From: Shigella phage vB_SboS_Gloob
Strand: one strand, 5' to 3'
DNA: 64,000 bases
Sequence record: OL615011
Of this stretch, positions 4,403 through 64,000 are shown one piece after another. Each line of letters starts with the position of its first letter. The first letter of the stretch is position 1. Made by a program: the position numbers and the translations under genes. The notes beneath the pieces were generated by a model. It worked only from the letters and a program-made list of their open reading frames with translations, made no database searches and was not told where the DNA came from.

Positions 4403-4708
4403 ATGTTAACCACTGATGTCTACTTCAAATATGCGCGACAGACGTATGGCTCGCATCGTGTGACAGACAAATTCTTGATAGACTCCTTCCAGTTTGAAGG
4501 GGAGATGAGGGAATACTCACACAAACAATTCCCACCCCGTGAAGTTCATGGTGACCAGTTCGTGAAATTGTTCTGTCGCTGCGGCGGTTGTGACTTCACA
4601 GATGATGGGTATGCAATGCACGTATACTGCTGCAATTGCTGTGGTAAATACATAACAGTCTATAGGAGAACCAATCATGGCGAAGAAACCCGAAACCAAG
4701 AAAGTTGA
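4403..4708 (+). CDS. hypothetical Cys-rich protein
   Basis: 101-aa ORF with CRCGGC...CCNCCG cysteine cluster; overlaps next gene start. Confidence 0.4.
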   Translation: MLTTDVYFKYARQTYGSHRVTDKFLIDSFQFEGEMREYSHKQFPPREVHGDQFVKLFCRCGGCDFTDDGYAMHVYCCNCCGKYITVYRRTNHGEETRNQES

Positions 4709-5102
4709 AACCGCAACTACAGCCCCCGTTGATGACATCCAGGCGAAGGAGGAAGGTGTGTTACCCACCTACCTGCAACGCGCTGTGGACAACATGCCTA
4801 CAGGCGGGGATGGAGGCGTCGTCTACGCTGGCGGGTACGGTTGGGTGTGCGAATACCGAGACGGCACCAAAGAACTCCTTCAGGAGCTTCCAGGGCTGGC
4901 GTCCACGCTGAAGCGTTATGGTCGCGACAAGTATGGCAAGCCGTTTGAGAAGGGCGCTGTCGTCTCCACCAACATTACAGCAGATACTCTGAACCTTCTG
5001 GGTGTGGACGACCTGAAGCTGCTGGCTGAACCTTTGGGTATCACAGTAGAAGATCGCATTACGTTGATTGCTCAACTGATCGAAAAATTGCAGATTAAAT
5101 AA
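4677..5102 (+). CDS. hypothetical protein
   Basis: 141-aa ORF preceded by AGGAGA ribosome-binding site. Confidence 0.6.
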   Translation: MAKKPETKKVETATTAPVDDIQAKEEGVLPTYLQRAVDNMPTGGDGGVVYAGGYGWVCEYRDGTKELLQELPGLASTLKRYGRDKYGKPFEKGAVVSTNITADTLNLLGVDDLKLLAEPLGITVEDRITLIAQLIEKLQIK

Positions 5103-5131
5103 AGCAGTGTACAACAGCTGAATTAATCTAT

Positions 5132-5524
5132 ATGGTTATCGTTGACGAAAGCAATCTGATAGAGTATGCCCTGAGGCATTACATTGTTGATTCTATCTCA
5201 CGGGATGAGTTGCTGACAGACATACAGCGAATTTCGCTAATTAACCAATCATTGAAGAGATTTGTGCCTGGCAAGAGTCCAAGGCTCATATTGAATCAGC
5301 TGATCACTCTCTTCAATACGTTCGAAGCAGAAGCAGTCTGTCGTATGCTTGTGTTGAAAACGGATAAGTCTCAGCTTCCGCGCCTCAAGGCTGCTTTGTT
5401 GACGTTAGGCGTATGGCGTGATGATTTATGTTCCGGTTCATACGAACCAGATAACGAGCTATTAATGGCTCTGAACAACGATTTGGGCGAGTGGAGGAAA
5501 CCATGCCAACAATCACTGTATTAG
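5132..5524 (+). CDS. hypothetical protein
   Basis: 130-aa ORF, no clear RBS. Confidence 0.4.
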   Translation: MVIVDESNLIEYALRHYIVDSISRDELLTDIQRISLINQSLKRFVPGKSPRLILNQLITLFNTFEAEAVCRMLVLKTDKSQLPRLKAALLTLGVWRDDLCSGSYEPDNELLMALNNDLGEWRKPCQQSLY

Positions 5525-6312
5525 TAGCACCGGAAGTTGTTCGCAACAAACCGGAAACCGAGCGTCTGCACACCGTGACAGGCACTGCCAAGGGTTGGGA
5601 AAAGACCAGTCTTAACCAAGACCCTGACGAGATCCTGACCGAGTGTAAAGGCCTGGATACACTTCTGACCAAGAGCAATCTGCAGGCTGATGGCGTGACC
5701 AAAGTTGATCCAACCAAGCCTATCGGCTTCGAGATCTCTTACGAAATCCACGACCCAAGCGCCGTGCTGACCACTGGCCTGACCATCACCCCTGCGACTG
5801 CTGGTGGTGAAGTCGGTCAGGTTGTTGAACTGCTGGCGACCGTCGCTCCGGCGAACGCGACCTACCAGGGTGTCAACTGGTACTCTGGTGACATCACCAA
5901 AGCTGTACACATCGGCGGTGGTAAATTCAAGCTGCTGGCTCCTGGTTCTGTGACTGTGTACGGTGTTACCATCGAAGGTGGCCACACTGACTCTACCGTC
6001 ATCACAGTGGCGGGTGCGCTGGCTCTGTCTACTGATCTGGCTGCTTCTCAGGATGTAACAGCAGGTGAAGACGCAACCTTCACCATCGCTGCTACAGGCG
6101 GCACTACCCCATACACATATGCTTGGTACTTCTCTGATGTCCCTGGTGGTGAAGGTGTGGTGATCGATGCTGGCGCTAACGCCACTGCTGCAACTGCGAG
6201 CCTGGTTATCACCGCAGTTGATGCCGCAGACGAGGGTGAGTACTGGTGTGTTGTTGAAGACGCCGATGGCCACTCTGTGACCTCTACCCGTTGTGAAATG
6301 GCTGTGGTCTAA
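5503..6312 (+). CDS. Ig-like domain protein (Big_2-like plus I-set-like), possible Hoc-like surface protein
   Basis: GGAGGAAACC RBS before ATG 5503; tandem Ig-like segments (YQGVNWYSGD...VTVYGVTIEGG; DATFTIAATGG...DEGEYWCVVEDADG). Confidence 0.6.
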   Translation: MPTITVLVAPEVVRNKPETERLHTVTGTAKGWEKTSLNQDPDEILTECKGLDTLLTKSNLQADGVTKVDPTKPIGFEISYEIHDPSAVLTTGLTITPATAGGEVGQVVELLATVAPANATYQGVNWYSGDITKAVHIGGGKFKLLAPGSVTVYGVTIEGGHTDSTVITVAGALALSTDLAASQDVTAGEDATFTIAATGGTTPYTYAWYFSDVPGGEGVVIDAGANATAATASLVITAVDAADEGEYWCVVEDADGHSVTSTRCEMAVV

Positions 6313-6314
6313 TC

Positions 6315-6545
6315 ATGAAGGGCTTCCAGGACTTTCTTGAAGACTCGGCAGCCCCTGGAACCACGACCGCCGATGTGGGGAAACCCGAAGGCGGTATGGT
6401 GAAAGAGCCTGTCAAGAAACCCAAGGATCTTGAGGAAGAACAAGAGCAGACCGACTTCCAAAAGATCTTTGGGAATATCTTCAAAGACCTCGACCTGAAG
6501 AATGCACGAAGGTGGAACTTCAGGACAGGCAAATATGAAGACTAA
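6315..6545 (+). CDS. small protein with capsid-targeting-sequence-like N-terminus (MKGFQDFLED)
   Basis: N-terminus matches the MKxFQDFLTE paralog family in this window and resembles T4 internal-protein CTS MKTYQEFIAE. Confidence 0.6.
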   Translation: MKGFQDFLEDSAAPGTTTADVGKPEGGMVKEPVKKPKDLEEEQEQTDFQKIFGNIFKDLDLKNARRWNFRTGKYED

Positions 6546-6570
6546 AAGAGGCTCCGGCCTCTTTTTCATT
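6546..6570 (+). terminator. rho-independent terminator
   Basis: agaggctccggcctct hairpin followed by TTTTT. Confidence 0.6.
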
Positions 6571-6633
6571 TCCAGCATTCGGTGTATAATGGACCCGTTC
6601 CCCATGAGCGGAACCTAACTGAGGATACACCAA

Positions 6634-7146
6634 ATGCAATCCATGATCAAACGTAAAGTAGAAATCTCCCTGAATGCCCATGTTGAAATGATCCAGCAGC
6701 TTGTGTCTGACGCATATGAGGTACAAAAGGATCGCCAATCGAAGGGAGGCGTGATGGACCCCACCTGTCCCGGAAACATACTACACTATCGCATGCTGCG
6801 CTGGACTGGGCATACGGCTGCTCTGAAGAAACTGCTTTCTAAAAGATTCCAGGCCGAAAACGATGCCTATGTGTTTGGCGTCTTCCATAATTCGCGTGAA
6901 CGCGATGCGCTCTTCTATCCTTCCCGCAACCCAAAGACAGGCGAAGAACTGCCTATCCCTGATGTCGACAAGGAAGAGAGCACGGCCACCATCGCCCATT
7001 TCATGGGCACGAATATCGATAAAGCAAACATCATCGTGTTCTCTGATACACTTCATGATCCGAAACGCTTGGCTGCCGCCCATGAAATGTTGCGCAATAG
7101 CCGCAGTGCTTTCACAAATTTGACTTTAGTAGTGTTTCTGGGCTAG
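6634..7146 (+). CDS. hypothetical protein
   Basis: 170-aa ORF; TATAAT-like box about 45 nt upstream. Confidence 0.55.
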   Translation: MQSMIKRKVEISLNAHVEMIQQLVSDAYEVQKDRQSKGGVMDPTCPGNILHYRMLRWTGHTAALKKLLSKRFQAENDAYVFGVFHNSRERDALFYPSRNPKTGEELPIPDVDKEESTATIAHFMGTNIDKANIIVFSDTLHDPKRLAAAHEMLRNSRSAFTNLTLVVFLG

Positions 7147-7195
7147 ATAGTTACAGGGGAGGAAACTCCCCTATTTCCCTAACAGGAGGCGCACA

Positions 7196-7393
7196 ATGTA
7201 CAAGTTCAGAATTAACAGAGAACGTAATTCGTTCAAGTTCGGTGTAGTCGCTGGAGTTTGTTTGTTCCTGGCGCTCGAAAGCGTTGTCAGCCTGCTTACA
7301 ACATCACAAATGCAGGTGACTCGTTACCTACTTGCCATTATATTTTCTGCTGTCGGTTTACTCTGCTCCTATTTGGGGTGTGTGAAGAAATAA
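7196..7393 (+). CDS. small membrane protein (two predicted TM helices)
   Basis: AGGAGG RBS; hydrophobic segments VVAGVCLFLALESVV and LLAIIFSAVGLLCSYL. Confidence 0.55.
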   Translation: MYKFRINRERNSFKFGVVAGVCLFLALESVVSLLTTSQMQVTRYLLAIIFSAVGLLCSYLGCVKK

Positions 7394-7435
7394 ACTGGCT
7401 GCACACAGCAATACTTTGATTTGAGAAACTACATC

Positions 7436-7924
7436 ATGATGCTGTTAATGAGCGTTCCACAGAACAAGATGACCCCTGAAACAGAGGGTAAGAATCACTT
7501 CAACATCTACAGCCAGAGCCAAACGGAACTCGGGCGCTTCCTCTCGCATTTTGCCCATCATCCAGTGACTACCTATGAGCACGGCGTGTTCAACTCCATG
7601 GAAGGCTACTGGTATTGGCTAAAGTACAGGGATGACAACCTGCGCTTGCTCGACGGCTACGAAGCCAAGCAATATGGGCAGGGGTTGGCGGCCACTCGCA
7701 TCGCTGTCCTTGATCCATCATCCGAAGAATTCAAGCGCGACATTCTGTTTGCCACCAGCATGAAACTCCAGACAATGCCCGACCTGCTGAAGATCAGATT
7801 GGCGTACAGTCGACTCCCTCTGATCCATGCATACGTTCGGAACGGGAAATATAGTTTTCAAAACTCTATGGACTTTATCATAGACCACATTAATCGTCTC
7901 CGCATACAAGGAACTTTGAAATGA
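7436..7924 (+). CDS. hypothetical protein
   Basis: first ATG of track ORF (track start is TTG); stop overlaps next gene start (ATGA). Confidence 0.5.
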   Translation: MMLLMSVPQNKMTPETEGKNHFNIYSQSQTELGRFLSHFAHHPVTTYEHGVFNSMEGYWYWLKYRDDNLRLLDGYEAKQYGQGLAATRIAVLDPSSEEFKRDILFATSMKLQTMPDLLKIRLAYSRLPLIHAYVRNGKYSFQNSMDFIIDHINRLRIQGTLK

Positions 7925-8502
7925 AATTTCTACATACCATCATTGGCACTTCTTACGATTGCACTGCTCATTGCCCTGACCGTTCGTCTGTGTTCGTCCT
8001 AGGTAAACTGGTAGAAGAATTGTGTGAGCTGTCTGATGTCTACAATGGCCTGGCGGCGTCGGAACCCCTGAACGGTGAAATCGCTGATGTTATCATCTCT
8101 GCGATTGATTTGCTATATGTCGTGGAGTTTAACCCTCACCAAATCAATGGTTGCATGAACAAGGAAGAAATGATCGATTCTGTTATCTTCCGTCTTGCAG
8201 AATTGGGGGCGACAGAATCAAAAGATGTGGAGAGCCACTGGTTCCATGTGGGTGATCTGAAACCGGAGAAGCATCTGGCGCTGGCCTTGCACTATCTAGG
8301 CAGAACAACCCGCCTTTTGAACCAACCATACCGTTCAGAAGACGATCTGGCGTACCTGGTGGACAGGATCATCACCTTCGCGGCCAAAATGGCTTGCGCT
8401 GTTGGCATCGTCAACTCTGTGTCTCAGTCGGACACGCGAGTGAAGGTGGAACACGCTATTGAACACAAAGTTGAAAAGTGGCGCACTAAATTTGGTCTAT
8501 AA
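7921..8502 (+). CDS. MazG-like nucleoside triphosphate pyrophosphohydrolase (putative)
   Basis: all-alpha MazG-like acidic motif LVEELCELSD...EIADVIISAIDL. Confidence 0.5.
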   Translation: MKFLHTIIGTSYDCTAHCPDRSSVFVLGKLVEELCELSDVYNGLAASEPLNGEIADVIISAIDLLYVVEFNPHQINGCMNKEEMIDSVIFRLAELGATESKDVESHWFHVGDLKPEKHLALALHYLGRTTRLLNQPYRSEDDLAYLVDRIITFAAKMACAVGIVNSVSQSDTRVKVEHAIEHKVEKWRTKFGL

Positions 8503-55534: not shown

Positions 55535-56329
55535 TTAACTGAAACTCTTGTATGCAGCAGCGAGCTTCGTGTCGTACTGGTTCTTGGCATACGCCGGACC
55601 ATTATAGCGCCGCGCAAACTCAGCCCAGTTCTTGTCCTTCAGAGCCTGCCAGAGCTTGGCGTCGGCCTTGATGAACTTCACGAATGCCATCAGATGGGCG
55701 CGTTCGCCTGTCAAGAAGTCATTGAACATCTCCTTGGCGTTGGCGTACCCACAGACCTGGCAGTTGAAGCCCATGATCTGGAAGAGGCCGTATGAAGCGC
55801 TCTCGTACGCACAATCCTCATCGATGTTGATGGCCGCATGAAGTCTATCCAACTCTGCATCGCCGCCCGTGTACCCGCCTGCCACTGGACTGACAAGGGT
55901 TGGATACATCTGACCAGCAGCATTCGCCCGAGCCTGCCCGAACTTCGCCATCATCTTCTTGTACATGATGTGACGCTCAAACAACGTCTTGATCTTACCA
56001 GACTTGGTGAAGCCAGTGCCACGGGATTCAACCTGATTGACTGCCTTCACAGAGGCGAGGTCAACCCCCAGCTGGTTGGCTGCATCGATAAGGTCAGCCT
56101 CAGTCAGGTGATCCTGATGGGCGTCTCCGGCGTTGCGAATAGCATAGGAGGTCTTTGGACCCACAATACCATCAATGACAAGCCCCGCACCCGCCTGAAC
56201 GGATTTGACAGCGTTCTCTGTTGCCTTACCAAAGATGCCGTCAGCGACGAGGGTGAAGCCGATTTTGTTGAGGCTCTGCTGAAGTGCCTTCACTTCAGTG
56301 CCACGGTTGCCAAGTTTTAGAATGGCCAT
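55535..56329 (-). CDS. endolysin: N-terminal peptidoglycan-binding domain plus C-terminal muramidase-like domain
   Basis: PG_binding_1-like repeat (GTEVKALQQSLNKIGF...DGIFGKATENAV...DGIVGPKTSYAI); GGAGG RBS. Confidence 0.7.
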   Translation of the reverse strand: MAILKLGNRGTEVKALQQSLNKIGFTLVADGIFGKATENAVKSVQAGAGLVIDGIVGPKTSYAIRNAGDAHQDHLTEADLIDAANQLGVDLASVKAVNQVESRGTGFTKSGKIKTLFERHIMYKKMMAKFGQARANAAGQMYPTLVSPVAGGYTGGDAELDRLHAAINIDEDCAYESASYGLFQIMGFNCQVCGYANAKEMFNDFLTGERAHLMAFVKFIKADAKLWQALKDKNWAEFARRYNGPAYAKNQYDTKLAAAYKSFS

Positions 56330-56397
56330 AAGAAAATACCTCCGCAATGAATGCGAAGGTATTTAAAGTGAAAGTGAACTACTTGAGGGAGTGTGTA

Positions 56398-56733
56398 CTA
56401 CATTTCTTTGAGCAGCGTTGCCATAAATTCCACCTTCTTGCGCAAACTGATGTACGCTTCCGGAGCCGATTTGCCACGCCCTTCTAATGAATCCCACCCG
56501 ATGATTTTCGCCGACCAAAGTTTCTCATACTGATGGTAGGTCATCAAAAACGACTTACGACACATTTTGATGTCTGCGCCTTCTATGTTTCTGAGTATTT
56601 CCCAGTCCACCTGGCCCAAAGAAATTTTGAGTTCATACAGAGCCAATCTTGACAATTCCAAGTTATTCTTTGGAGTGCCTTCTGGTTTACCTGGCTCTGT
56701 TATGGCCAAAGCCTCTTGTTTTGTTAGTTTCAT
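56398..56733 (-). CDS. hypothetical protein
   Basis: 111-aa ORF. Confidence 0.45.
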   Translation of the reverse strand: MKLTKQEALAITEPGKPEGTPKNNLELSRLALYELKISLGQVDWEILRNIEGADIKMCRKSFLMTYHQYEKLWSAKIIGWDSLEGRGKSAPEAYISLRKKVEFMATLLKEM

Positions 56734-56918
56734 CTTGCTACCACCACTGGCATAACTTCTCTGAAGGACGTACGAACTTCGACGTCGTACCCGTATTTTT
56801 CAAGGACTGCCAGCATCGCCTGCTCGAGTTCCTCTTGGAACTGAGGGAAGACTTTGTTCGGAATGCGGTCGGCAACCCAGAGAGCGCCTGAAGAGGCTTG
56901 GATGACAGCGCGGGACAT
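56730..56918 (-). CDS. hypothetical protein
   Basis: 62-aa ORF overlapping downstream start. Confidence 0.4.
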   Translation of the reverse strand: MSRAVIQASSGALWVADRIPNKVFPQFQEELEQAMLAVLEKYGYDVEVRTSFREVMPVVVAR

Positions 56919-56972
56919 AATGGTCTCCTACCAAAAATCTGAATAAGGAGGGGAGTTTCCTCCCCCTTTCGA

Positions 56973-57461
56973 TTAAGCCAGTTTACCCACCAGGGTCTGA
57001 ACGTCTTTGGCGGTCAGTTTACCCATTTTGACGTACTGAGCTTTTGCTTCACCACCAGCCGCTTTCACGATGTCTTCGTTTGCGTAGCCTTTCTTAGGGA
57101 AGACCATCACAGAGAAGGAACCGTTGTTCAGCGGGTTCAGCTGGATGCGACCTTTACCAACTACGATGGTGCCGTAAGTTTCGGTATTCGCTTCGACGAC
57201 GTGGATGTCGTGACCCAGGTCTTTCAGCATGCCAACTTTGTCGGCAGTCTTAGCAACCACAGCTTTGTCAACCACAACCTGCTCTACCAGGGTGAAGCCG
57301 TTGGTCGCTTTTACTTTGCCGTTCAGCAGGTTCATGAAGGAAGTTTTACCACCAGTGAAGCCAGCTGCCTGAGCGATGCGGAACATTTCAACTTTAGCAA
57401 CTTCGGTGTTCAGTTCGAAAGAGATGGTGCCGTTGGTGATCAGAGTTTTGGTAGTAGCCAT
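56973..57461 (-). CDS. hypothetical protein (possibly abundant/structural)
   Basis: internal ATG (MATTKTL); long structured AT-rich leader upstream. Confidence 0.5.
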   Translation of the reverse strand: MATTKTLITNGTISFELNTEVAKVEMFRIAQAAGFTGGKTSFMNLLNGKVKATNGFTLVEQVVVDKAVVAKTADKVGMLKDLGHDIHVVEANTETYGTIVVGKGRIQLNPLNNGSFSVMVFPKKGYANEDIVKAAGGEAKAQYVKMGKLTAKDVQTLVGKLA

Positions 57462-57608
57462 GATGTAATTCCTCATAATGTAGTTGGTTCGTTTCACTTT
57501 TCATTCGGCGGTGTGTTGCCGCCCTATGTGAACTATAATAGTGCATCATTATTGAAGAGTAAAGTCTTTTTCAATAAATTTTTAAAATAATTTTGAAGTA
57601 TTTTAAAA

Positions 57609-57627
57609 GGCCTCATTCGACGAGGCC
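57609..57627 (-). terminator. rho-independent terminator
   Basis: ggcctcattcgacgaggcc hairpin; TTTTAAAAT on minus strand. Confidence 0.5.
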
Positions 57628-57656
57628 TGGAGGGAGGTGATGTGAAGTAAAAAGTT

Positions 57657-57863
57657 TTAGCTCGGGCGAACTCTTACAAACTCGCGAGCCAATTCGGCCT
57701 GCTCAGCACTGATGGGAACCCCATGGAAGTCCACCTGGCCATTCTTCCAGCCGTGGATGAAACTCGGGGACTCTTCCCCAGATAGGACATACCCCTCACG
57801 AGATTTCAAGTATCCCCGCACGATCTCCCCGTCGTCCAGTTTGTTCAGTTCTTCTAACGTCAT
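57657..57863 (-). CDS. hypothetical protein
   Basis: 68-aa ORF immediately downstream of primase. Confidence 0.45.
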   Translation of the reverse strand: MTLEELNKLDDGEIVRGYLKSREGYVLSGEESPSFIHGWKNGQVDFHGVPISAEQAELAREFVRVRPS

Positions 57864-58918
57864 TTCACTTTCCTCAGTTCAGCGAATTGCAATGAAGCAG
57901 CCATACCCTGGTAGACGTTCTTGGCGATCAGCTTCAGGAGGTCTTGTATCGGCATGTTGCCCTTTGACGGCATGACCATGTCGTTGATATCCTTCCACGG
58001 AACGTCCGGTGGGAACAGCACGACCTTGACACCTTTATCTATCATCTTCTGAATACCGTCACACACCTGCGGGTTCCGGTACTGATTATCAGGGATATAG
58101 ATGTCGCCCTTCACGCTCAACAAGTCGGCATCTGCTGACGCCATACAATTCGGCAGGAAGAGGCTATCAATCGGACCTTCCACCACCAGCTTGGTCTTGT
58201 GAATGTTCACCCGGTCTTCCCCATAGACTTTGGTGTCCTCGTCCTTGGGCTTGACTGTCGCGTATCGCAGGGTCGCGTTCTTGTCGAATGCACGCCCCTG
58301 AACGACCTTCATCCGCCCGTCTTGCGTCCAGAATGGAATCACCAGCCGTTCGTCATCAGGGATCTTCAGTTGCTTTTCGGGGTCTGTTTCAAACAGCTTC
58401 AGGTCTTCACGAAAGCGCTGTGTGTAGTACAGTAAGGACCAAGTGCTCTCCGGCAGCCCTCGCCACTGTACGTACTGTCGAGCCTTATGGTCAGGCGGTA
58501 GTAGATCAAGCCGGAGCATATTGCCGAGGAGGCTCTCGTCGCGTTTTGCCGCCACTGAGCCAATACGGGCGGTCTGTGTCAGCTTTGGCAACGGCTTCAG
58601 GGAAGGAAGTGGTCTGCCCGACGTATCACCCAGCAGGCGGAACTTCTCCATGTTGTACTCTGTTGAGAGGCGCTCATCGAACTTCTTCAGCCAGAACTCA
58701 AATGACCAGCCATTCATCTGGTTGCAGTTGTGGCACTTGAACCGGAAGCAGTCATGATCCCGATCATAGAAGAAGTATCCACGGCGCTTGTTAGCAGACT
58801 TCGTGGAGTCACCACACAGGGGACAACGGAAGTTTGCGACAGTACCAACGCGCTCCCACTTGAACTTGTCAAGGCGGGGCGACACGTTGTTGATAAATTG
58901 CTCGTCAAGAAATTTCAT
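57860..58918 (-). CDS. DNA primase (T4 gp61-like)
   Basis: N-terminal zinc ribbon (FRCPLCGDS...CHNCN) and TOPRIM (LVVEGPIDSLFL) resembling T4 gp61 as recalled. Confidence 0.8.
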   Translation of the reverse strand: MKFLDEQFINNVSPRLDKFKWERVGTVANFRCPLCGDSTKSANKRRGYFFYDRDHDCFRFKCHNCNQMNGWSFEFWLKKFDERLSTEYNMEKFRLLGDTSGRPLPSLKPLPKLTQTARIGSVAAKRDESLLGNMLRLDLLPPDHKARQYVQWRGLPESTWSLLYYTQRFREDLKLFETDPEKQLKIPDDERLVIPFWTQDGRMKVVQGRAFDKNATLRYATVKPKDEDTKVYGEDRVNIHKTKLVVEGPIDSLFLPNCMASADADLLSVKGDIYIPDNQYRNPQVCDGIQKMIDKGVKVVLFPPDVPWKDINDMVMPSKGNMPIQDLLKLIAKNVYQGMAASLQFAELRKVK

Positions 58919-59189
58919 TTATCCACCCGGTACGGAAAAGGATAGATTTATACTCTTCCACCATGTCCTGGTCGTAATCAGTTTGACGGGAATACGATTG
59001 GGCTTCAGCACAATCAGCGCCAAGTTCCACAGAAGCCATAGCGGCTTTCATGTTCAATTTATTTTTGTACTCAGAAACCATCCCATGTCTTTCCAAATAT
59101 TCACTTGCCTGGATAAATCGTTTTTCTCTGGCGAACATTAGACCATAGTTGATTTCTGAAAACTCTCTGTTGTATGCTTCTAATGACAT
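58905..59189 (-). CDS. hypothetical protein
   Basis: 94-aa ORF. Confidence 0.45.
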   Translation of the reverse strand: MSLEAYNREFSEINYGLMFAREKRFIQASEYLERHGMVSEYKNKLNMKAAMASVELGADCAEAQSYSRQTDYDQDMVEEYKSILFRTGWINEIS

Positions 59190-59198
59190 AATGACCTC

Positions 59199-59810
59199 TT
59201 AAATCGCTGGCCTCTGGAACACTTCGGTCACAGTATAGTCTACACCACGACTTTGAGCTATACACAGTTGGCGCCAAGCCCCATACAGGATATTCTGTTC
59301 CCCAGCCGTGTTGCGCTCAAAGTGGGCGAAGCCGTCCAGGAGATCCATGTAGCTGCGCATATGCCGGGTAACGGTTCTTCCTCTCTTGATCTGTTCATCA
59401 AGATACTTCTGATAATGCTCTGGTGATGACAATGAAGAGTACTGCATGTCTGGCACATGAACTGGCATCAGGGACTTGCGGGGTGTGAAGTAGAACAACC
59501 CCCACTTTGGTGGCAGGTCTTCAACCCTGATCACATCCTGAGGGCAGACATAAAAGCGGTATGCACCCATCCCTGTTGTGGGGTCCATCCGATGGGGCTT
59601 CTTCTTGTCGGTGAGGAAGTCGGCGCGGGACACCTTCACTTCCATCAGGACAGAGCACCCACCTGAACGAAACCCGATGGCATCAGGTGATTCTTTGTTG
59701 TCAAACGAATTTGGCTCGATGAAGACAGCGCCGCAGTTCATGCGACCGCGCAGGTAGTTGGCCGCGATCTCACATCCTTCACGATGTGTCGGGGTAAAGA
59801 TTTTGCTCAT
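59199..59810 (-). CDS. PD-(D/E)XK nuclease-like protein
   Basis: PDAIGF ... LMEVK core motif; AAGGA RBS before ATG. Confidence 0.5.
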   Translation of the reverse strand: MSKIFTPTHREGCEIAANYLRGRMNCGAVFIEPNSFDNKESPDAIGFRSGGCSVLMEVKVSRADFLTDKKKPHRMDPTTGMGAYRFYVCPQDVIRVEDLPPKWGLFYFTPRKSLMPVHVPDMQYSSLSSPEHYQKYLDEQIKRGRTVTRHMRSYMDLLDGFAHFERNTAGEQNILYGAWRQLCIAQSRGVDYTVTEVFQRPAI

Positions 59811-59867
59811 TGTCCTTTCCTTTCGGTGAATAATGAGCAAAATTATATGCCTTTATTTCGTATTGAC

Positions 59868-60221
59868 TTACGACAGCTGCTTCAGTTTGTAGATCGTCTG
59901 ATAGCACAGCGTCTTGATTTCATCAAGCGTGTTCTGAAGGTGGGAGTCGCACTGCCTGTAGATGCCATCGACGTCTATCACCACGCTGTTGACATAGGAG
60001 ATAGGGTCTGGGTTATAGAGCTTGATGTTCTCAAACGACGGAACGTACTGGCCACCCGCACCGATGTATGCTTCGGTAAACGTGTCCAGCAAGTCCTCCA
60101 GTTCCCCGTAGAACTCCCCGAGAGCTTTGTGCTTGGCGTAGGACGTTGTAACGAAGTGCAGGGCATGAGAGTGGGCTATAGCAAGCAGTCCACGGTTGAT
60201 GAAAATACTCGCGTTAACCAT
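59868..60221 (-). CDS. hypothetical protein
   Basis: 117-aa ORF. Confidence 0.45.
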   Translation of the reverse strand: MVNASIFINRGLLAIAHSHALHFVTTSYAKHKALGEFYGELEDLLDTFTEAYIGAGGQYVPSFENIKLYNPDPISYVNSVVIDVDGIYRQCDSHLQNTLDEIKTLCYQTIYKLKQLS

Positions 60222-60310
60222 GATTTGTTTCCTGTATTGTGAACCATCTAGTATTTAGTGTTAATGGGTCCATGAGGTACTATATAGAATAATATAACTG
60301 GAGAACGAAA

Positions 60311-60916
60311 ATGAAAACTTTTCAAGACTTTTTGACCGAAGCCGCGCCGCCGATGTCTGTTCATATCAAGGCAGACAAGATCGGCAAGTCCACCGAAGAC
60401 AATATCGGTACTTTCTTGCGAGTTAGTGTTAGTGGCGACAAAGCTACTTTTGAAACCCCAGACGGGCGCAAGATAATCCTGACCAATGCCAAAGACATCA
60501 TTTCCGCATCTGGCCTGAAAGATGGCCAGTTTGCCAGTGCCCAGATGATTGACAAGGTTGATACTGACACCGCTGTCAAGTACAACAAATCAGGCAAATA
60601 TATTGACTTGTTGGATGTCAAATCAGGTATGGGCAATTCCTTTATCTCCATTGACGGTAACAAGCAATGGAAAGAAATGACCGAAGGTGGTTGGTATGCG
60701 TATAAAGGCGGTCGCCCCGGCTTGGCTCGTTATAAGATCGCCATGGTTATGGGACCTCATGCGGGTATGCCATCTCCTGGGGAAGATATTGAATACGAGT
60801 TACCGAATGGCGGCAAAGAACGCGGAACCGTCATGAAACTGAATGGTGCATCCAAGCTGATGGACGTCAAAAACGAAAAAGGTAAGAAAGTACAAGTCAG
60901 TATGTATGTGAAATAA
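60311..60916 (+). CDS. internal-protein-like protein with CTS-like N-terminus (MKTFQDFLTE)
   Basis: N-terminal decapeptide nearly matches T4 capsid targeting sequence; L-x-E cleavage context. Confidence 0.6.
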   Translation: MKTFQDFLTEAAPPMSVHIKADKIGKSTEDNIGTFLRVSVSGDKATFETPDGRKIILTNAKDIISASGLKDGQFASAQMIDKVDTDTAVKYNKSGKYIDLLDVKSGMGNSFISIDGNKQWKEMTEGGWYAYKGGRPGLARYKIAMVMGPHAGMPSPGEDIEYELPNGGKERGTVMKLNGASKLMDVKNEKGKKVQVSMYVK

Positions 60917-60920
60917 CAAA

Positions 60921-60940
60921 AACCCCGCCGAAGCGGGGTT
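60921..60940. terminator. bidirectional terminator
   Basis: aaccccgccgaagcggggtt hairpin with A-run and T-run on either side, between convergent genes. Confidence 0.65.
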
Positions 60941-60944
60941 TCTT

Positions 60945-61427
60945 TTATGGCTTGACCAGAGTCATCTTGACGGTTTCACCCGTGTCGGTGTCTGTCAGGG
61001 TCATGACGTCTTGTGCGTTCACAGACTTCACTTTCCCTTGTCGCTTGTCGCCGTTGCGGTTGTAGTAGTCGATCAGTTCGCCTTTGGTTGGGCGGCCAAC
61101 ATCGGTGATGTCATACTGGCCGCGCTTCCCCAGCGCCCGGTGATCCACGCCTTCGGTCTTTAGATTCTTAACCCCCTCCAGGAATGCTTTGAGTAGATCG
61201 CCTGGGATAGGGGGCAGCTTCAGCTTCTCGGCCAATTCCTGTGGCTCACCTTTGATGGTCGAACCACTAGGGGACTTGTGCCCGTAGAACGTACCAGGAG
61301 TCTTGCCTTGATAGATTGAATAGCTCGGACCTTTGCTGTCGTACACAAGGGAACAAGTCCATTCAGTCTTGACTAAACGCCAACCAACTTGCTTGACCTC
61401 CGTTAGGAAGTCCTGGAACCCTTTCAT
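60945..61427 (-). CDS. internal-protein-like protein with CTS-like N-terminus (MKGFQDFLTE)
   Basis: same N-terminal motif as 60311 and 6315 genes; unrelated body. Confidence 0.6.
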   Translation of the reverse strand: MKGFQDFLTEVKQVGWRLVKTEWTCSLVYDSKGPSYSIYQGKTPGTFYGHKSPSGSTIKGEPQELAEKLKLPPIPGDLLKAFLEGVKNLKTEGVDHRALGKRGQYDITDVGRPTKGELIDYYNRNGDKRQGKVKSVNAQDVMTLTDTDTGETVKMTLVKP

Positions 61428-61435
61428 ACATCCCC

Positions 61436-62005
61436 CTAGACAGGCTTAACGCCGAGGAACTTGGCAATGTCAGCAGCCAGGTTTTTACCCTTGCTGATAT
61501 CCTGCTCCTTGCCGTTGCAGGTGACGATCACATACGGGTCATCTTCACCACCGAAGTTCACGGTGATCGCCTTGCCGATGCCAGGGATGCCAGAGTATTC
61601 GAACTCAGTGCGACCACTCTTGCGGGACTTGCCAACACCCAGTGCTTTACCGATCATCTTGTCCATGTTCGCCAGTTCCTGAGCATAGGCTTCGGTCACC
61701 TGGCCTTTGTCGGCAGACTTGCCAAAGAAGAATTCGAAGCCGTCATGGACAGCAACGACTTCCTGACCTTGGGAGATACCGTGAGTCTGGTCTGGGGTCA
61801 GCTTCACCTTGATGTTGTTGCCGTTGGTTAACTCCAGGTTGTAGACATCCGCCTGATTGTCAGGAGTGATCTGGGTCACGGTAGCACCGGAGCACCACTG
61901 AGTGCCGTCAGCTTGCTTGGTGATGGATACGCTTTTGCCCTGGACACCAGCATGGGTCTGAGGCTGAGCAGCTTGTTCTTTAAAGTATTGAAGGAACGGT
62001 TTCAT
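61436..62005 (-). CDS. internal-protein-like protein with divergent CTS-like N-terminus (MKPFLQYFKE)
   Basis: MK-x-F ... F-x-E pattern; TATAAATA box and GAGGAG RBS upstream. Confidence 0.55.
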   Translation of the reverse strand: MKPFLQYFKEQAAQPQTHAGVQGKSVSITKQADGTQWCSGATVTQITPDNQADVYNLELTNGNNIKVKLTPDQTHGISQGQEVVAVHDGFEFFFGKSADKGQVTEAYAQELANMDKMIGKALGVGKSRKSGRTEFEYSGIPGIGKAITVNFGGEDDPYVIVTCNGKEQDISKGKNLAADIAKFLGVKPV

Positions 62006-62030
62006 CTTGAATCTCCTCGGGGATTTCAGT

Positions 62031-62038
62031 TATTTATA
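62031..62038 (-). promoter_or_regulatory. T4-type late promoter box TATAAATA (minus strand)
   Basis: exact TATAAATA about 25 nt upstream of ATG at 62005. Confidence 0.45.
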
Positions 62039-62062
62039 AGCCCCCGAAGGGGCTTTAGATGA

Positions 62063-64000
62063 TCAGATCTTAATCTGCATGTTGCCGCCCAGGGACTGCT
62101 CATACTCACTGTATGCGCTCTCCCCGTCGTCTTTCGCCCACTGGTCAGACTGCTGGGCGCGAGCCAGAGTCATCAGGTTTGGTTCAGTCGGGTTGTAACC
62201 CTTGGACTTCGCATCCTGGTACAGAGTCTGCAGGTACTGGTTGGCGCGGTCAATCTGAGCTTTGAACTCGCGATATGCACCTTCAGTTGTATTGCGGCGG
62301 AAGGTGATATCCCAGTCCACGTTCAGAGTCTGACCATCACGGCTTGCATAGATCTGCCAATCCAGGTCGCGACCTTTTGGAGCGTTGTCGCGGATGGAAC
62401 CAGCGTATGTTGCAAGGTCAACACCAGTCTTCTTAGCAGTATCCGGTTCTTTATCCAGGCGTTCTGTTTCTTTGGACAGGATACCCAACATAAATTCATT
62501 GGTGCGGCGATCCGCCATGTCGTGCCCGCGCCAAAGGACTGAACCGTTGTTGTCAACAAAAATGTCGTCCAAAAATACTTGTTTCGGATTATGTGACGTG
62601 CTGTTCAGAGTTTGCATATTCCGAGATATCATTTCCATTTTAGAAGAAATTTCATCGATCACGGCCTGAACAATATCTTTCTTCAAAGGAAGTTCATATG
62701 TCTTCGGATTGTTCAACAGTCGCCCTTTCTGAGAGATCATCGGCGTGAACGCGACTTTTCCTTTGTCGTAGTAATAGGTCACATTCGTGGTCAATACAGC
62801 ACCATCATACTTCCCAGTTTTCGGGAAATTGACACCAGACCAAGTGATGGACATACCGTTGACAGTCTCACCAAACACCATGGCGTTGCGCGGCATCTTC
62901 AGGGTTCCAGAGTTGACCAGATCAGCGCCCTGGGCATTCAGGTCGATAGAACCATAGATGGTCCCGCTACGATCTTTCAGCATCAGGGTCTTGTCGCCCT
63001 TCTCTGGGATGATTTCCAGCAGGTGCTTGCCGCGCAGAGGCTCTTTGTTGAGTTCCAACAGAGCAGTGTTCCCTGGCTTCACACGATTCAGGACAGCGTC
63101 GGACACTTTCAGAGTCCAGTTTGCGGTTTCCACATAACCCCAGCCCTGAGAATGACGGATGGCCTTGATAGGGTATGGGGCACTCATTGGCACTGCGCTG
63201 ATTTCCCATTCGCCGCGATACTGATGTTCAGCGACGTATGTGATCGTTTCCATGATTTCGTTTGCCACCCGACGAGCATCGCCAGAGATGACACCAGGCT
63301 GAGTTTCGATTTCAGAGAACACGTTGTAGGTCAGATTCTTGCCATCGACTGAATCGAAGCTGACGATGATCACCAGACCACCTTTAGTTTGATAACGCGC
63401 CTGTCCGATCTTCTTAATGCTTTCCCCTGGGAGATAGCTTGCTTTCTGGTCAATGTTGGTATCAATGATACCCAGAACACGAGCGATGAAACCGCTGTCA
63501 CGCAATTGATCGATACTGGTTGCCCCGATTGTGGTGTTGGAGTCAGCTGGCGCGGTCTTCTGCTGAGAACCTTTCCAAAATTTTGTGGACGCCGTGGTGA
63601 AATCATTCAAGATACTGATAGGGACTTGCGGTAATTTCAACTGACGAGCAATGAAATCAGCACTTTGCCCACGCACAGATTTCTCATTCATGTATGCGCC
63701 AACATACACGCCTGGCTCATTGTAGTGGGGAGCGATATTTGCCGTGTTCATGCGGCCTCTCTCCTTACCAACCCATATCAACATGGGTTGATCCCCGTTT
63801 GAAGTTAATTTCCATCCGTTGGAATCATCAACAGAAGATGAAGCCCCCACATCTGGGGTATTGTCTTGAACCGGAACGTCACCGACCTTGTCTGGGTCAT
63901 CCCAGGTGATACCCTGCATCTTCGGACCGTCGAATACCTGAGCAGGATCTTTGCCCTTACGGACCAACCACACATAACCACGGTCGGGGACGGGCGCATA
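62063..64000 (-). CDS. large hypothetical protein, 5' end beyond window
   Basis: reading frame stays open to position 64000 (track start at 63973 is an internal GTG); more than 645 aa. Confidence 0.6.
   Translation of the reverse strand, partial: YAPVPDRGYVWLVRKGKDPAQVFDGPKMQGITWDDPDKVGDVPVQDNTPDVGASSSVDDSNGWKLTSNGDQPMLIWVGKERGRMNTANIAPHYNEPGVYVGAYMNEKSVRGQSADFIARQLKLPQVPISILNDFTTASTKFWKGSQQKTAPADSNTTIGATSIDQLRDSGFIARVLGIIDTNIDQKASYLPGESIKKIGQARYQTKGGLVIIVSFDSVDGKNLTYNVFSEIETQPGVISGDARRVANEIMETITYVAEHQYRGEWEISAVPMSAPYPIKAIRHSQGWGYVETANWTLKVSDAVLNRVKPGNTALLELNKEPLRGKHLLEIIPEKGDKTLMLKDRSGTIYGSIDLNAQGADLVNSGTLKMPRNAMVFGETVNGMSITWSGVNFPKTGKYDGAVLTTNVTYYYDKGKVAFTPMISQKGRLLNNPKTYELPLKKDIVQAVIDEISSKMEMISRNMQTLNSTSHNPKQVFLDDIFVDNNGSVLWRGHDMADRRTNEFMLGILSKETERLDKEPDTAKKTGVDLATYAGSIRDNAPKGRDLDWQIYASRDGQTLNVDWDITFRRNTTEGAYREFKAQIDRANQYLQTLYQDAKSKGYNPTEPNLMTLARAQQSDQWAKDDGESAYSEYEQSLGGNMQIKI

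What the first reader, a model, noticed from the sequence alone, without database searches (positions are those of the whole stretch)
62063..64000. Large unassigned protein next to the CTS cluster, truncated by the window edge
A minus-strand ORF of more than 645 codons remains open to the last base of the window (the annotated start at 63973 is an internal GTG). I recognise no motif in it. Its N-terminus, which would show whether it also carries a CTS, lies outside the window.
Basis: seen in the sequence. Interest (0 to 1): 0.45.

Follow-up and report, generated by a model that had tools for sequence, protein, structure and literature searches.

The report
Alt-like head-packaged phage protein, new cargo
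The cut-off gene encodes a 792-residue virion protein of a ViI-like (Ackermannviridae) Shigella phage whose front end is related to that of the T4 Alt protein, which rides inside the phage head and is shot into the cell, but whose cargo is a shuffled string of small domains of unknown function, not an enzyme.

Summary
The minus-strand frame 62066-64000 has 645 sense codons and no stop. A public contig identical to the last 7,938 bases of the window extends the gene 441 nt to an ATG with an AGGAG site, giving 792 aa starting MSKPNFLQFMQEKDQLDE|AFNS. The phage is about 98% identical to Shigella phage Ag3. No curated family matches; only phrog_3867 (unknown function) does.

New result: residues 5-176 are homologous to the N-terminal region of T4 Alt (hhalign probability 97%, E 8e-11; shuffles fail). 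The LDE-18 site aligns with Alt's known ITE-6 prohead-protease cleavage site. This N-domain heads about 80 protein clusters (300-1656 aa) with different tails; at least six carry Alt's ADP-ribosyltransferase domain.

Here the tail is four alpha+beta modules that are deleted, duplicated or interrupted by insertions among relatives. Module A is homologous to the neighbouring 160-aa CTS protein.

The LIMEstone1 homologue (ORF081+082) was found in virions by mass spectrometry.

Best reading: an Alt-type head-internal, probably ejected protein with a non-enzymatic, fast-shuffling payload. Packaging is well supported. Ejection and any anti-defence role are inferred. It is a new variant of a known kind.

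The parts
62063..64000 (-). 3' 1,938 nt of a 2,379-nt gene: codons 148-792 plus the stop at 62063-62065. The first 441 nt (codons 1-147) lie beyond base 64000.
   Evidence: The identical contig L005 gives the full 792-aa ORF (P0001).
63848..64000 (-). The last third (residues 148-198) of the Alt-type N-terminal domain and its linker. Residues 15-190 are nearly invariant across Ackermannviridae.
   Evidence: invariant columns; hhalign against the Alt family: probability 97%, E 8.2e-11; AF2 model, pLDDT 88.5.
63542..63847 (-). Module A (residues 199-300): a beta-sheet plus two helices. It is deleted in some relatives and duplicated in others, and is homologous to the neighbouring 160-aa CTS protein.
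   Evidence: module map; model; module A HMM against window ORF 60948-61445, E 6.8e-8; BLASTP E 0.005.
62927..63541 (-). Module B (residues 301-505): alpha+beta. The whole module is absent in P0104, and there is an insertion hot spot at its N-terminal junction (around residue 300).
62438..62926 (-). Module C (residues 506-668): a beta-sandwich plus long helices. There is an insertion hot spot at its C-terminal junction (around residues 665-675).
62066..62437 (-). Module D (residues 669-792): the C-terminal 'TFRRNT' domain. It also occurs as a free-standing small protein (110-300 aa) in many phage-like sequences, about half of them with a short leader ending in L-x-E.
   Evidence: P0184-P0251; these fall in the C-terminal part of phrog_3867; 19 of 37 have such a leader, against 5.3 expected in shuffles.
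62031..62053 (-). Terminator-like hairpin GCCCCTTCGGGGGC (62040-62053) followed directly by a perfect T4-type late promoter box TATAAATA (62031-62038), between the target's stop codon and the next gene.
   Evidence: LIMEstone1 annotates a putative late promoter at the same place.
61436..62005 (-). 189-aa protein starting MKPFLQYFKE (CTS-like leader). Its LIMEstone1 homologue, ORF080, is a confirmed virion protein.
   Evidence: PMC3296691 Table 2.
60945..61427 (-). 160-aa protein starting MKGFQDFLTE. Its body is homologous to module A of the target.
60311..60916 (+). 201-aa protein starting MKTFQDFLTE. Its C-terminal part resembles that of the 160-aa protein.
   Evidence: E 3e-4.

Best explanation
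The gene encodes an 88.5-kDa head-internal protein built on the plan of T4 Alt. Steps are marked as shown or inferred.

(1) Shown by sequence: it begins with an 18-residue leader, MSKPNFLQFMQEKDQLDE. The leader holds a CTS-like F-x-x-F-M-x-E motif and ends in an invariant L-x-E.

(2) Shown by profile comparison: residues 5-176 are homologous to the N-terminal region of T4 Alt, and the LDE-18 site is in register with Alt's ITE-6 site.

(3) Inferred from T4 biology: the leader plus the N-domain dock the protein to the gp22/gp68/gp21-type prohead core that this phage lineage encodes. The gp21-type protease then cuts after E18, leaving an 86.3-kDa mature chain with its basic N-domain (pI 9.3) still attached.

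(4) Shown for a homologue: both halves of the LIMEstone1 homologue are present in purified virions.

(5) Inferred: like Alt and the T4 internal proteins, it leaves the head with the DNA and acts in the newly infected cell.

(6) Inferred, weakest step: the payload is not an enzyme. It is four small alpha+beta modules that are gained, lost and duplicated among close relatives, and one of them is shared with a neighbouring small CTS protein. It most likely works by binding, as an array of inhibitor or decoy modules against host defence or host takeover targets, in the way T4 IPI* blocks GmrSD.
For: Identity and extension of the gene.

Alt homology: hhalign of the N-domain alignment A3 against the Alt N-terminal alignment A4 gives probability 97.0%, E 8.2e-11 over 168 columns, with P0001 residues 5-176 matched to T4 Alt 1-177. 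An independent local run gives 95% and E 3.9e-8. Reversed and 20 column-shuffled controls score 10-22 with P of at least 0.017.

Shared architecture: PF03496, the ADP-ribosyltransferase domain of Alt, sits at the C-terminus of N-domain proteins P0189, P0237, P0243, P0185, P0200 and P0190.

Cleavage motif: 80 of 83 N-domain cluster representatives have [LIVMF]-x-E|[AS][FL][ND] within the first 70 residues. 20 of 83 start with a CTS-like decapeptide, against 0.45 expected. LDE-18 is conserved in 34 of 34 family members, and it is the only conserved L-x-E outside the folded domains apart from none at the module junctions.

Alt's processing at ITE-6, its 40 copies per head and its ejection: PMC5694885, PMC9026906, and the X15811 feature note.

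The near-identical phage Ag3 encodes homologues of gp23, gp22, the gp21 protease, gp68 and gp20.

Context elsewhere: P0189 and P0183, two N-domain proteins, lie in tandem beside Gp23, T4_CASP, Peptidase_S77 and Portal_T4 genes.

Virion presence: LIMEstone1 ORF081 (55.2% coverage, 23 peptides) and ORF082 (19.6% coverage, 4 peptides), PMC3296691 Table 2. These map to the payload and the N-domain respectively.

Modularity. Module A matches the neighbouring CTS protein at E 6.8e-8.
Against: There is no direct evidence for this phage: no virion mass spectrometry, no N-terminal peptide and no ejection assay. In the Ag3 paper only six gel bands were analysed, and this protein was not among them.

The Alt link rests on profile-profile comparison. 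BLASTP and hhalign against a single Alt sequence (P 0.011) are not significant on their own.

The CTS-like decapeptide is shifted by two residues relative to T4, and only about a quarter of the superfamily has one.

No T4-type late promoter box was found directly upstream of the gene.

The extreme conservation of the N-domain would also fit a structural role.
Confidence: 0.62

Rival explanations
1. It is a permanent structural or scaffolding part of the head interior, for example a core or portal-proximal component that helps assembly or DNA organisation. On this view it is not an ejected effector, and the N-domain is conserved because it is a structural building block.
For: Residues 15-190 are almost invariant across Ackermannviridae genera. 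The protein is abundant enough to give 55% MS coverage in LIMEstone1. The payload shows no enzyme or effector signature.
Against: Whole payload modules are deleted or duplicated, or interrupted by insertions, among close relatives; family lengths range from 531 to 1105 aa. That is unusual for a load-bearing structural part. The homologous N-domain in T4 belongs to Alt, which is non-essential and ejected. The same N-domain carries ADP-ribosyltransferase effectors elsewhere.
Confidence: 0.2
2. It is a polyprotein. The prohead protease cuts it at the module junctions, releasing several small internal proteins.
For: It has a beads-on-a-string layout with low-confidence linkers at about residues 198-207, 293-297 and 666-668. 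Module A is homologous to a free-standing CTS protein and module D to free-standing small proteins. Giant-phage head proteins are cut at several sites (PMC5694885).
Against: No conserved L/I-x-E motif lies at any junction. The internal L-x-E motifs sit inside confidently folded elements and are less conserved.
Confidence: 0.08
3. It is a tail or neck protein. One record names the homologue 'tail completion protein'.
Confidence: 0.03
4. It is a non-virion host-takeover protein made early or in the middle of infection, and the virion MS signal is carry-over.
For: It sits among replication and recombination genes (primase, gp46/47, RegB). No T4-type late promoter box is directly upstream.
Against: Twenty-three unique peptides and 55% coverage in purified virions is in the range of the portal and sheath proteins. 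Four neighbouring gene products are virion proteins too. The leader with a protease motif and the Alt homology are also hard to fit.
Confidence: 0.05

Closest known systems
T4 Alt (gpalt), the head-packaged, injected ADP-ribosyltransferase
   Same: The N-terminal region of about 175 residues is homologous. A short N-terminal propeptide ends in L/I-x-E at the aligned position; Alt is cut at ITE-6. Both are large proteins of 80-90 kDa, both occur in virions of a T4-type head system, and both are dispensable-looking accessory genes.
   Different: There is no ADP-ribosyltransferase domain (PF03496 absent). The payload is four non-enzymatic-looking alpha+beta modules. The leader is 18 residues against 6 and contains an extra CTS-like motif. 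No counterpart of Alt's C-terminal LTE-619 site was seen. The genomic position differs: in T4, alt lies next to the ligase gene and gene 54.
[quoted passage not shown]
   Same: The N-terminal leader has aromatic residues three apart followed by [LIM]-x-E. It is adjacent to three genuine CTS-type genes. One payload module is shared with a CTS protein. The family shows the high diversity described for IPs (PMC3012670). The locus order RegB ... internal proteins ... endolysin resembles T4's regB-denV-ipII-ipIII-e.
   Different: It is 792 aa rather than 8-20 kDa. The leader is offset by two residues and followed by a large conserved domain that the IPs lack. The payload is not strongly basic (pI 6.7).
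Polyvalent proteins and MuF-fused effectors of phages (Iyer, Burroughs, Aravind 2017; PMC5512222, PMC9503650)
   Same: The logic is the same: a conserved head-associated carrier domain is fused to variable, shuffled C-terminal modules that are thought to be injected with the DNA.
   Different: The carrier is the Alt-type N-domain, not MuF or portal. None of the recognised conflict domains (methylases, ArdA, peptidases, ARTs) is present in this member.
LIMEstone1 ORF081/ORF082 and Dickeya phage XF4 'unknown structural protein' (phrog_3867)
   Same: They are direct homologues. The N-domain and module D are 91-97% identical, and the proteins were experimentally found in virions.
   Different: The Dickeya-phage version is 531 aa and lacks modules B and C. 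In the LIMEstone1 record the gene is split by a 1-nt insertion.
Ejection proteins of phiKZ/SPN3US-type giant phages
   Same: They are large head-internal proteins with N-terminal propeptides removed after a glutamate by a gp21-related protease (PMC5694885).
   Different: No sequence relation was found. Their propeptides are much longer and their cleavage motifs differ (A/S-x-E).

Membership tests
T4 Alt family (Alt-like RNA polymerase ADP-ribosyltransferase) | Alt-type N-terminal region (about 175 aa) | tested here: met
   hhalign of A3 against A4: probability 97.0%, E 8.2e-11, 168 columns. Local run: 95%, E 3.9e-8. Shuffled controls are negative.
T4 Alt family (Alt-like RNA polymerase ADP-ribosyltransferase) | C-terminal ADP-ribosyltransferase domain (PF03496) | tested here: not met
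   No PF03496 hit in the window fragment or in the full-length SFP10 homologue. phmmer with T4 Alt gives no ART match to any family member. The protein is therefore not filed as an Alt enzyme.
T4 Alt family (Alt-like RNA polymerase ADP-ribosyltransferase) | N-terminal propeptide removed by the gp21 protease at L/I-x-E | tested here: inconclusive
   The motif LDE-18 is invariant and aligns with Alt ITE-6. The cleavage itself cannot be shown with these tools.
T4 Alt family (Alt-like RNA polymerase ADP-ribosyltransferase) | Packaged in the head and ejected with the DNA | not testable with these tools
   Virion presence is shown only for the LIMEstone1 homologue. Location inside the head and ejection are not shown.
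T4-type CTS internal proteins (IPI/IPII/IPIII) | Ten-residue N-terminal CTS, M-K-x-[YF]-Q-[ED]-F-[IL]-x-E, with key residues 4 and 7 (targeting) and 8 and 10 (processing) | tested here: inconclusive
   MSKPNFLQFMQE has F6, F9, M10 and E12, the same spacing shifted by two residues. The three neighbouring genes match exactly. The T4 reference sequence is, and the rules are from PMC9026906.
T4-type CTS internal proteins (IPI/IPII/IPIII) | Small (8-20 kDa) basic protein | tested here: not met
   88.5 kDa; pI 8.1 overall, payload pI 6.7.
Polyvalent proteins / MuF-anchored effectors | MuF or portal-type anchor plus several recognisable conflict domains in one chain | tested here: not met
   There are no MuF, portal or effector Pfam/NCBIfam hits. 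The resemblance is in architecture only.
GNAT (GCN5-related N-acetyltransferase) fold, for the N-domain | Mixed beta-sheet with alpha3/alpha4 topology | tested here: inconclusive
GNAT (GCN5-related N-acetyltransferase) fold, for the N-domain | Acetyl-CoA pyrophosphate loop Q/R-x-x-G-x-G/A and a sequence match to GNAT profiles | tested here: not met
   None of the 41 members matches a GNAT Pfam family, even at E up to 5. The QKRGSV stretch is not conserved in the superfamily.
phrog_3867 (phage protein family of unknown function) | Full-length match to the family profile | tested here: met
   E 1.3e-270, profile positions 148-785 of 787 for the window fragment. The N-terminal 199 residues match positions 1-198.

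The most novel reading that the evidence does not exclude
The Alt N-terminal region may be a general, previously unnamed carrier domain of T4-type heads, not an appendage of one enzyme. It has a GNAT-like fold and an L-x-E-cleaved leader, and phages from several lineages would use it to load very different cargoes (ADP-ribosyltransferases, a DinI-like domain, and long strings of unknown modules up to 1,656 aa) into the capsid for injection. On this reading the Ackermannviridae member is a multi-module, non-enzymatic array of inhibitor or decoy domains, drawn from the same pool as the small CTS internal proteins and reshuffled in an arms race with host defences.
Probability: 0.35. Interest if true: 0.7.

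Novelty: new variant of a known kind. Interest (0 to 1): 0.5.

Why it matters
Ackermannviridae (ViI, CBA120, SFP10, LIMEstone and others) are widely used for biocontrol and therapy. Even so, the cluster of 'unknown structural proteins' between their RegB gene and the primase gene has had no functional reading since 2010-2012.

Linking the largest of them to T4 Alt gives a concrete, testable model: the protein is loaded through the prohead core, trimmed after E18, and delivered with the DNA. The link also defines a roughly 175-residue domain that could be used to load foreign proteins into these phages, as the T4 CTS is used.

The link suggests that Alt-type carriers deliver many cargoes besides ADP-ribosyltransferases. 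The rapidly shuffled payload modules are therefore good candidates for undiscovered anti-defence or host-takeover factors that act in the first seconds of infection.

Tried and rejected
- **Pfam T4SS-DNA_transf hit**. It scores 19.8 bits, below the 20.1 cutoff, and is absent from the full-length SFP10 homologue. Treated as chance.
- **Direct comparisons with T4 Alt.** BLASTP, a PHROG/Pfam cross-scan and hhalign against a single Alt sequence were each not significant. Only family-against-family comparison was.
- **The search for homologous proteins** with the Alt N-terminus and with the N-domain alignment returned only five proteins each and added little.
- **PDB sequence searches** for the protein, for Alt and for the N-domain profile were all empty.
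- **Programmed frameshift.** Both Ag3 and LIMEstone1 records split the gene. Rejected: the 1-nt insertions are at different positions (gene nt 464 and nt 304), and the gene is intact in the window, L005, XF4 and more than 100 relatives.
- **Protease cutting at module junctions.** No conserved L-x-E motif is there.
- **GNAT enzymatic activity of the N-domain.** Only a fold-level resemblance; there is no sequence or motif support.
- **Literature searches** for CTS or internal proteins in Ackermannviridae found nothing specific.
- **Promoter class of the gene** could not be settled.
Full report
**What is in the sequence**

The minus-strand frame from 62066 to 64000 is open for 645 sense codons and ends at a stop at 62063-62065. 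The ORF lister gives a GTG at 63973 only because the frame runs off the window.

The window comes from an Ackermannviridae phage. This stretch is 98.3% identical to Shigella phage Ag3 (Agtrevirus) and about 83% identical to Salmonella Kuttervirus phages.

A 156-kb public contig (L005) is identical to the last 7,938 bases of the window, with no mismatch or gap. It continues the frame for 147 more codons to an ATG preceded by AGGAG and by a terminator-like hairpin. The gene is therefore 2,379 nt and the protein 792 aa (P0001). The same protein occurs in Shigella phage vB_SboS_Gloob.

**What the databases say**

- Pfam, NCBIfam and PDB sequence searches give nothing above threshold.
- One sub-threshold Pfam hit (T4SS-DNA_transf, 19.8 bits against a 20.1 cutoff) is not reproduced in the SFP10 homologue. 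I treat it as chance.
- The only family match is phrog_3867, of unknown function.
- Records call the homologues 'hypothetical', 'unknown structural protein' or, in one record, 'tail completion protein'.

**Experimental anchor**

In Dickeya phage LIMEstone1 the homologue is annotated as two ORFs, ORF082 and ORF081. Both are marked 'confirmed structural protein'. Mass spectrometry of purified virions gave 23 unique peptides and 55.2% coverage for ORF081, and 4 peptides and 19.6% coverage for ORF082 (PMC3296691).

I mapped ORF082 to the N-terminal domain and ORF081 to the rest of the protein. Both parts of the protein are therefore in the virion.

The split is due to a 1-nt insertion that is absent from phage XF4 of the same species. 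The Ag3 record has a different 1-nt insertion. Both are probably sequencing errors.

The LIMEstone1 products ORF078, ORF080 and ORF085, whose homologues flank the target here, are virion proteins too.

**The N-terminus and the CTS question**

The three adjacent genes (60311-62005) encode proteins beginning MKTFQDFLTE, MKGFQDFLTE and MKPFLQYFKE. T4 IPIII and IPII begin MKTYQEFIAE.

In T4 these ten residues are the capsid targeting sequence. Residues 4 and 7 are needed for targeting and residues 8 and 10 for cleavage by the gp21 protease (PMC9026906).

The full target protein begins MSKPNFLQFMQE-KDQLDE-AFNS. It has the same F-x-x-F-[ML]-x-E pattern shifted by two residues, followed by a second L-x-E.

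**The main new result: an Alt-type N-terminal domain**

An exhaustive HMMER search of 1.84 billion cluster representatives showed two things:

- Residues about 5-200 head roughly 80 other protein clusters, 300-1,656 aa long, with unrelated C-terminal parts.
- Residues about 690-792 recur in many small proteins.

Almost all N-domain proteins (80 of 83) carry [LIVMF]-x-E followed by [AS][FL][ND][ST]-x-P-Y within the first 70 residues. The median predicted propeptide is 17 residues. Twenty begin with a CTS-like decapeptide, against 0.45 expected from shuffled leaders.

At least six of these proteins end in PF03496, the ADP-ribosyltransferase domain of T4 Alt.

I then built two alignments: 41 N-domains (A3) and 11 Alt N-termini from different Straboviridae genera (A4). 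Profile-profile comparison gives probability 97.0% and E 8.2e-11 over 168 columns. P0001 residues 5-176 match T4 Alt 1-177. An independent local run gave 95% and E 3.9e-8. The reversed alignment and 20 column-shuffled alignments gave scores of 10-22 and P of at least 0.017.

The alignment puts QLDE|AFNS opposite ELITE|LFDE. T4 Alt is known to lose exactly six residues at ITE-6 through gp21. It is present at about 40 copies in the prohead core and is ejected into the host (X15811 note; PMC5694885; PMC9026906).

Two pieces of context fit this:

- Ag3 encodes homologues of gp23, gp22, the gp21 protease, gp68 and gp20.
- In an unrelated T4-like contig, two N-domain proteins, one of them with the ART domain, lie in tandem beside the Gp23, T4_CASP, Peptidase_S77 and Portal_T4 genes.

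A Pfam family (PF26846) is on record for part of the Alt N-region. It is not recorded for any member of the target family, and it is absent from the Pfam copy I could scan.

**Structure**

With only close relatives in the alignment, the N-domain modelled poorly, while residues 207-792 modelled well with pLDDT of about 75-90. With the diverse alignment A3, the N-domain model reached pLDDT 88.5 and pTM 0.81.

**The payload is modular and unstable**

I mapped 120 family members onto P0001 (examples). The layout is:

| Part | Residues | Behaviour among relatives |
|---|---|---|
| N-domain | 1-198 | constant |
| Module A | 199-300 | deleted or duplicated |
| Module B | 301-505 | deleted in P0104 |
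| Module C | 506-668 | absent from the 531-aa Dickeya-phage version |
| Module D | 669-792 | conserved |

Insertions of 90-120 residues occur at about residues 198, 300 and 668. Family lengths range from 531 to 1,105 aa.

A profile of module A finds the neighbouring 160-aa CTS protein at E 6.8e-8. Module D occurs as a free-standing small protein, and about half of these have a short leader ending in L-x-E: 19 of 37, against 5.3 expected in shuffles.

LDE-18 is the only L-x-E motif that is both invariant and in an exposed leader. No conserved L-x-E lies at any module junction. The protein is therefore probably not cut into pieces. The predicted mature chain is 86.3 kDa.

**Interpretation**

Well supported:

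- The identity and full length of the gene.
- Its virion association, through a homologue.
- The homology of its N-terminal region to that of Alt.
- The conserved protease-type motif in register with Alt's cleavage site.
- The modular shuffling of the payload.

Inferred from T4 biology:

- Docking to the prohead core.
- Cleavage after E18.
- Ejection with the DNA.

Most speculative is the payload's role. I favour binding or inhibition of host defence or takeover targets, because of four observations: the modules look non-enzymatic, they turn over quickly, they share ancestry with small CTS proteins, and T4 internal proteins are described as a diverse set of anti-restriction factors (PMC3012670).

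The main rival is a structural role inside the head. The extreme conservation of the N-domain would fit that. The dispensability of whole modules argues against it.

**Comparison with known systems, and novelty**

The protein works like T4 Alt and like the carrier-plus-effector 'polyvalent' and MuF-fused proteins of phages (PMC9503650). It is not an Alt enzyme, because the ART domain is absent. It is not a classical small internal protein. It has no MuF or portal anchor.

I found no paper that describes the Alt N-terminal region as a shared carrier domain, or that assigns this Ackermannviridae protein to it. The literature search covers open-access papers only.

I rate it a new variant of a known kind, of moderate interest.

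Noticed in passing
window 62031-62053 (minus strand): A GC-rich hairpin, GCCCCTTCGGGGGC, is followed within two bases by a perfect T4 late-promoter box, TATAAATA. It lies between the target's stop codon and the 189-aa CTS gene, so that gene appears to have its own late promoter directly after a terminator.
   Followed up: partly
L005:5960-5985, just beyond window base 64000; also L002 and L003 upstream of the homologous genes: A conserved motif, GCTAATTA[AG]G[GA][GA]AAACCGC, lies about 20-40 nt upstream of the start codon in Agtrevirus, Kuttervirus and Limestonevirus, after a terminator-like hairpin. It is not a T4 late box, and its meaning is unknown.
   Followed up: no
L001 (Ag3, NC_013693) 5557-7936 and L004 (LIMEstone1, HE600015) 4416-6012: Both reference records split this gene into two or three ORFs because of single-base insertions, at gene nt 464 in Ag3 and nt 304 in LIMEstone1. 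The gene is intact in the window, in XF4 and in more than 100 relatives, so the records probably carry sequencing errors and the annotations should be merged.
   Followed up: yes
window 59868-60221 (minus strand): A 117-aa protein annotated as 'starvation-inducible transcriptional regulator' (phrog_858, DUF5856) has a LIMEstone1 homologue, ORF078, that is a confirmed virion protein with 28% coverage. A regulator-like protein packaged in the particle is unexpected.
   Followed up: no
window 60945-61427 (minus) and 60311-60916 (plus): The C-terminal halves of the 160-aa and 201-aa CTS proteins resemble each other (E 3e-4). Residues 77-159 of the 160-aa protein match the middle of a 676-position PHROG (phrog_5709). 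Domain sharing between small CTS proteins and larger modular proteins therefore seems general.
   Followed up: partly
L005:4806-5441 (homologue of LIMEstone1 ORF085, two genes upstream of the target, outside the window); P0182: The cluster representative P0182 (133 aa) begins like this 212-aa virion protein (MNITPSQTGYEH...) but ends with 55 residues that are 76% identical to the target's C-terminus (residues 737-791). This looks like a recombinant between two genes of the locus.
   Followed up: no
window about 55535-64000, compared with T4 62279-66997 (L021): The gene order RegB ... virion-internal proteins ... endolysin on one strand resembles T4's regB-denV-ipII-ipIII-e. The locus may be the positional counterpart of the T4 internal-protein locus.
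   Followed up: no
L018:616-3968: In a T4-like metagenomic contig, two proteins with the Alt-type N-domain lie in tandem right next to the major capsid, scaffold, prohead protease and portal genes. One is 580 aa with an ADP-ribosyltransferase domain; the other is 516 aa with an unknown tail.
   Followed up: partly
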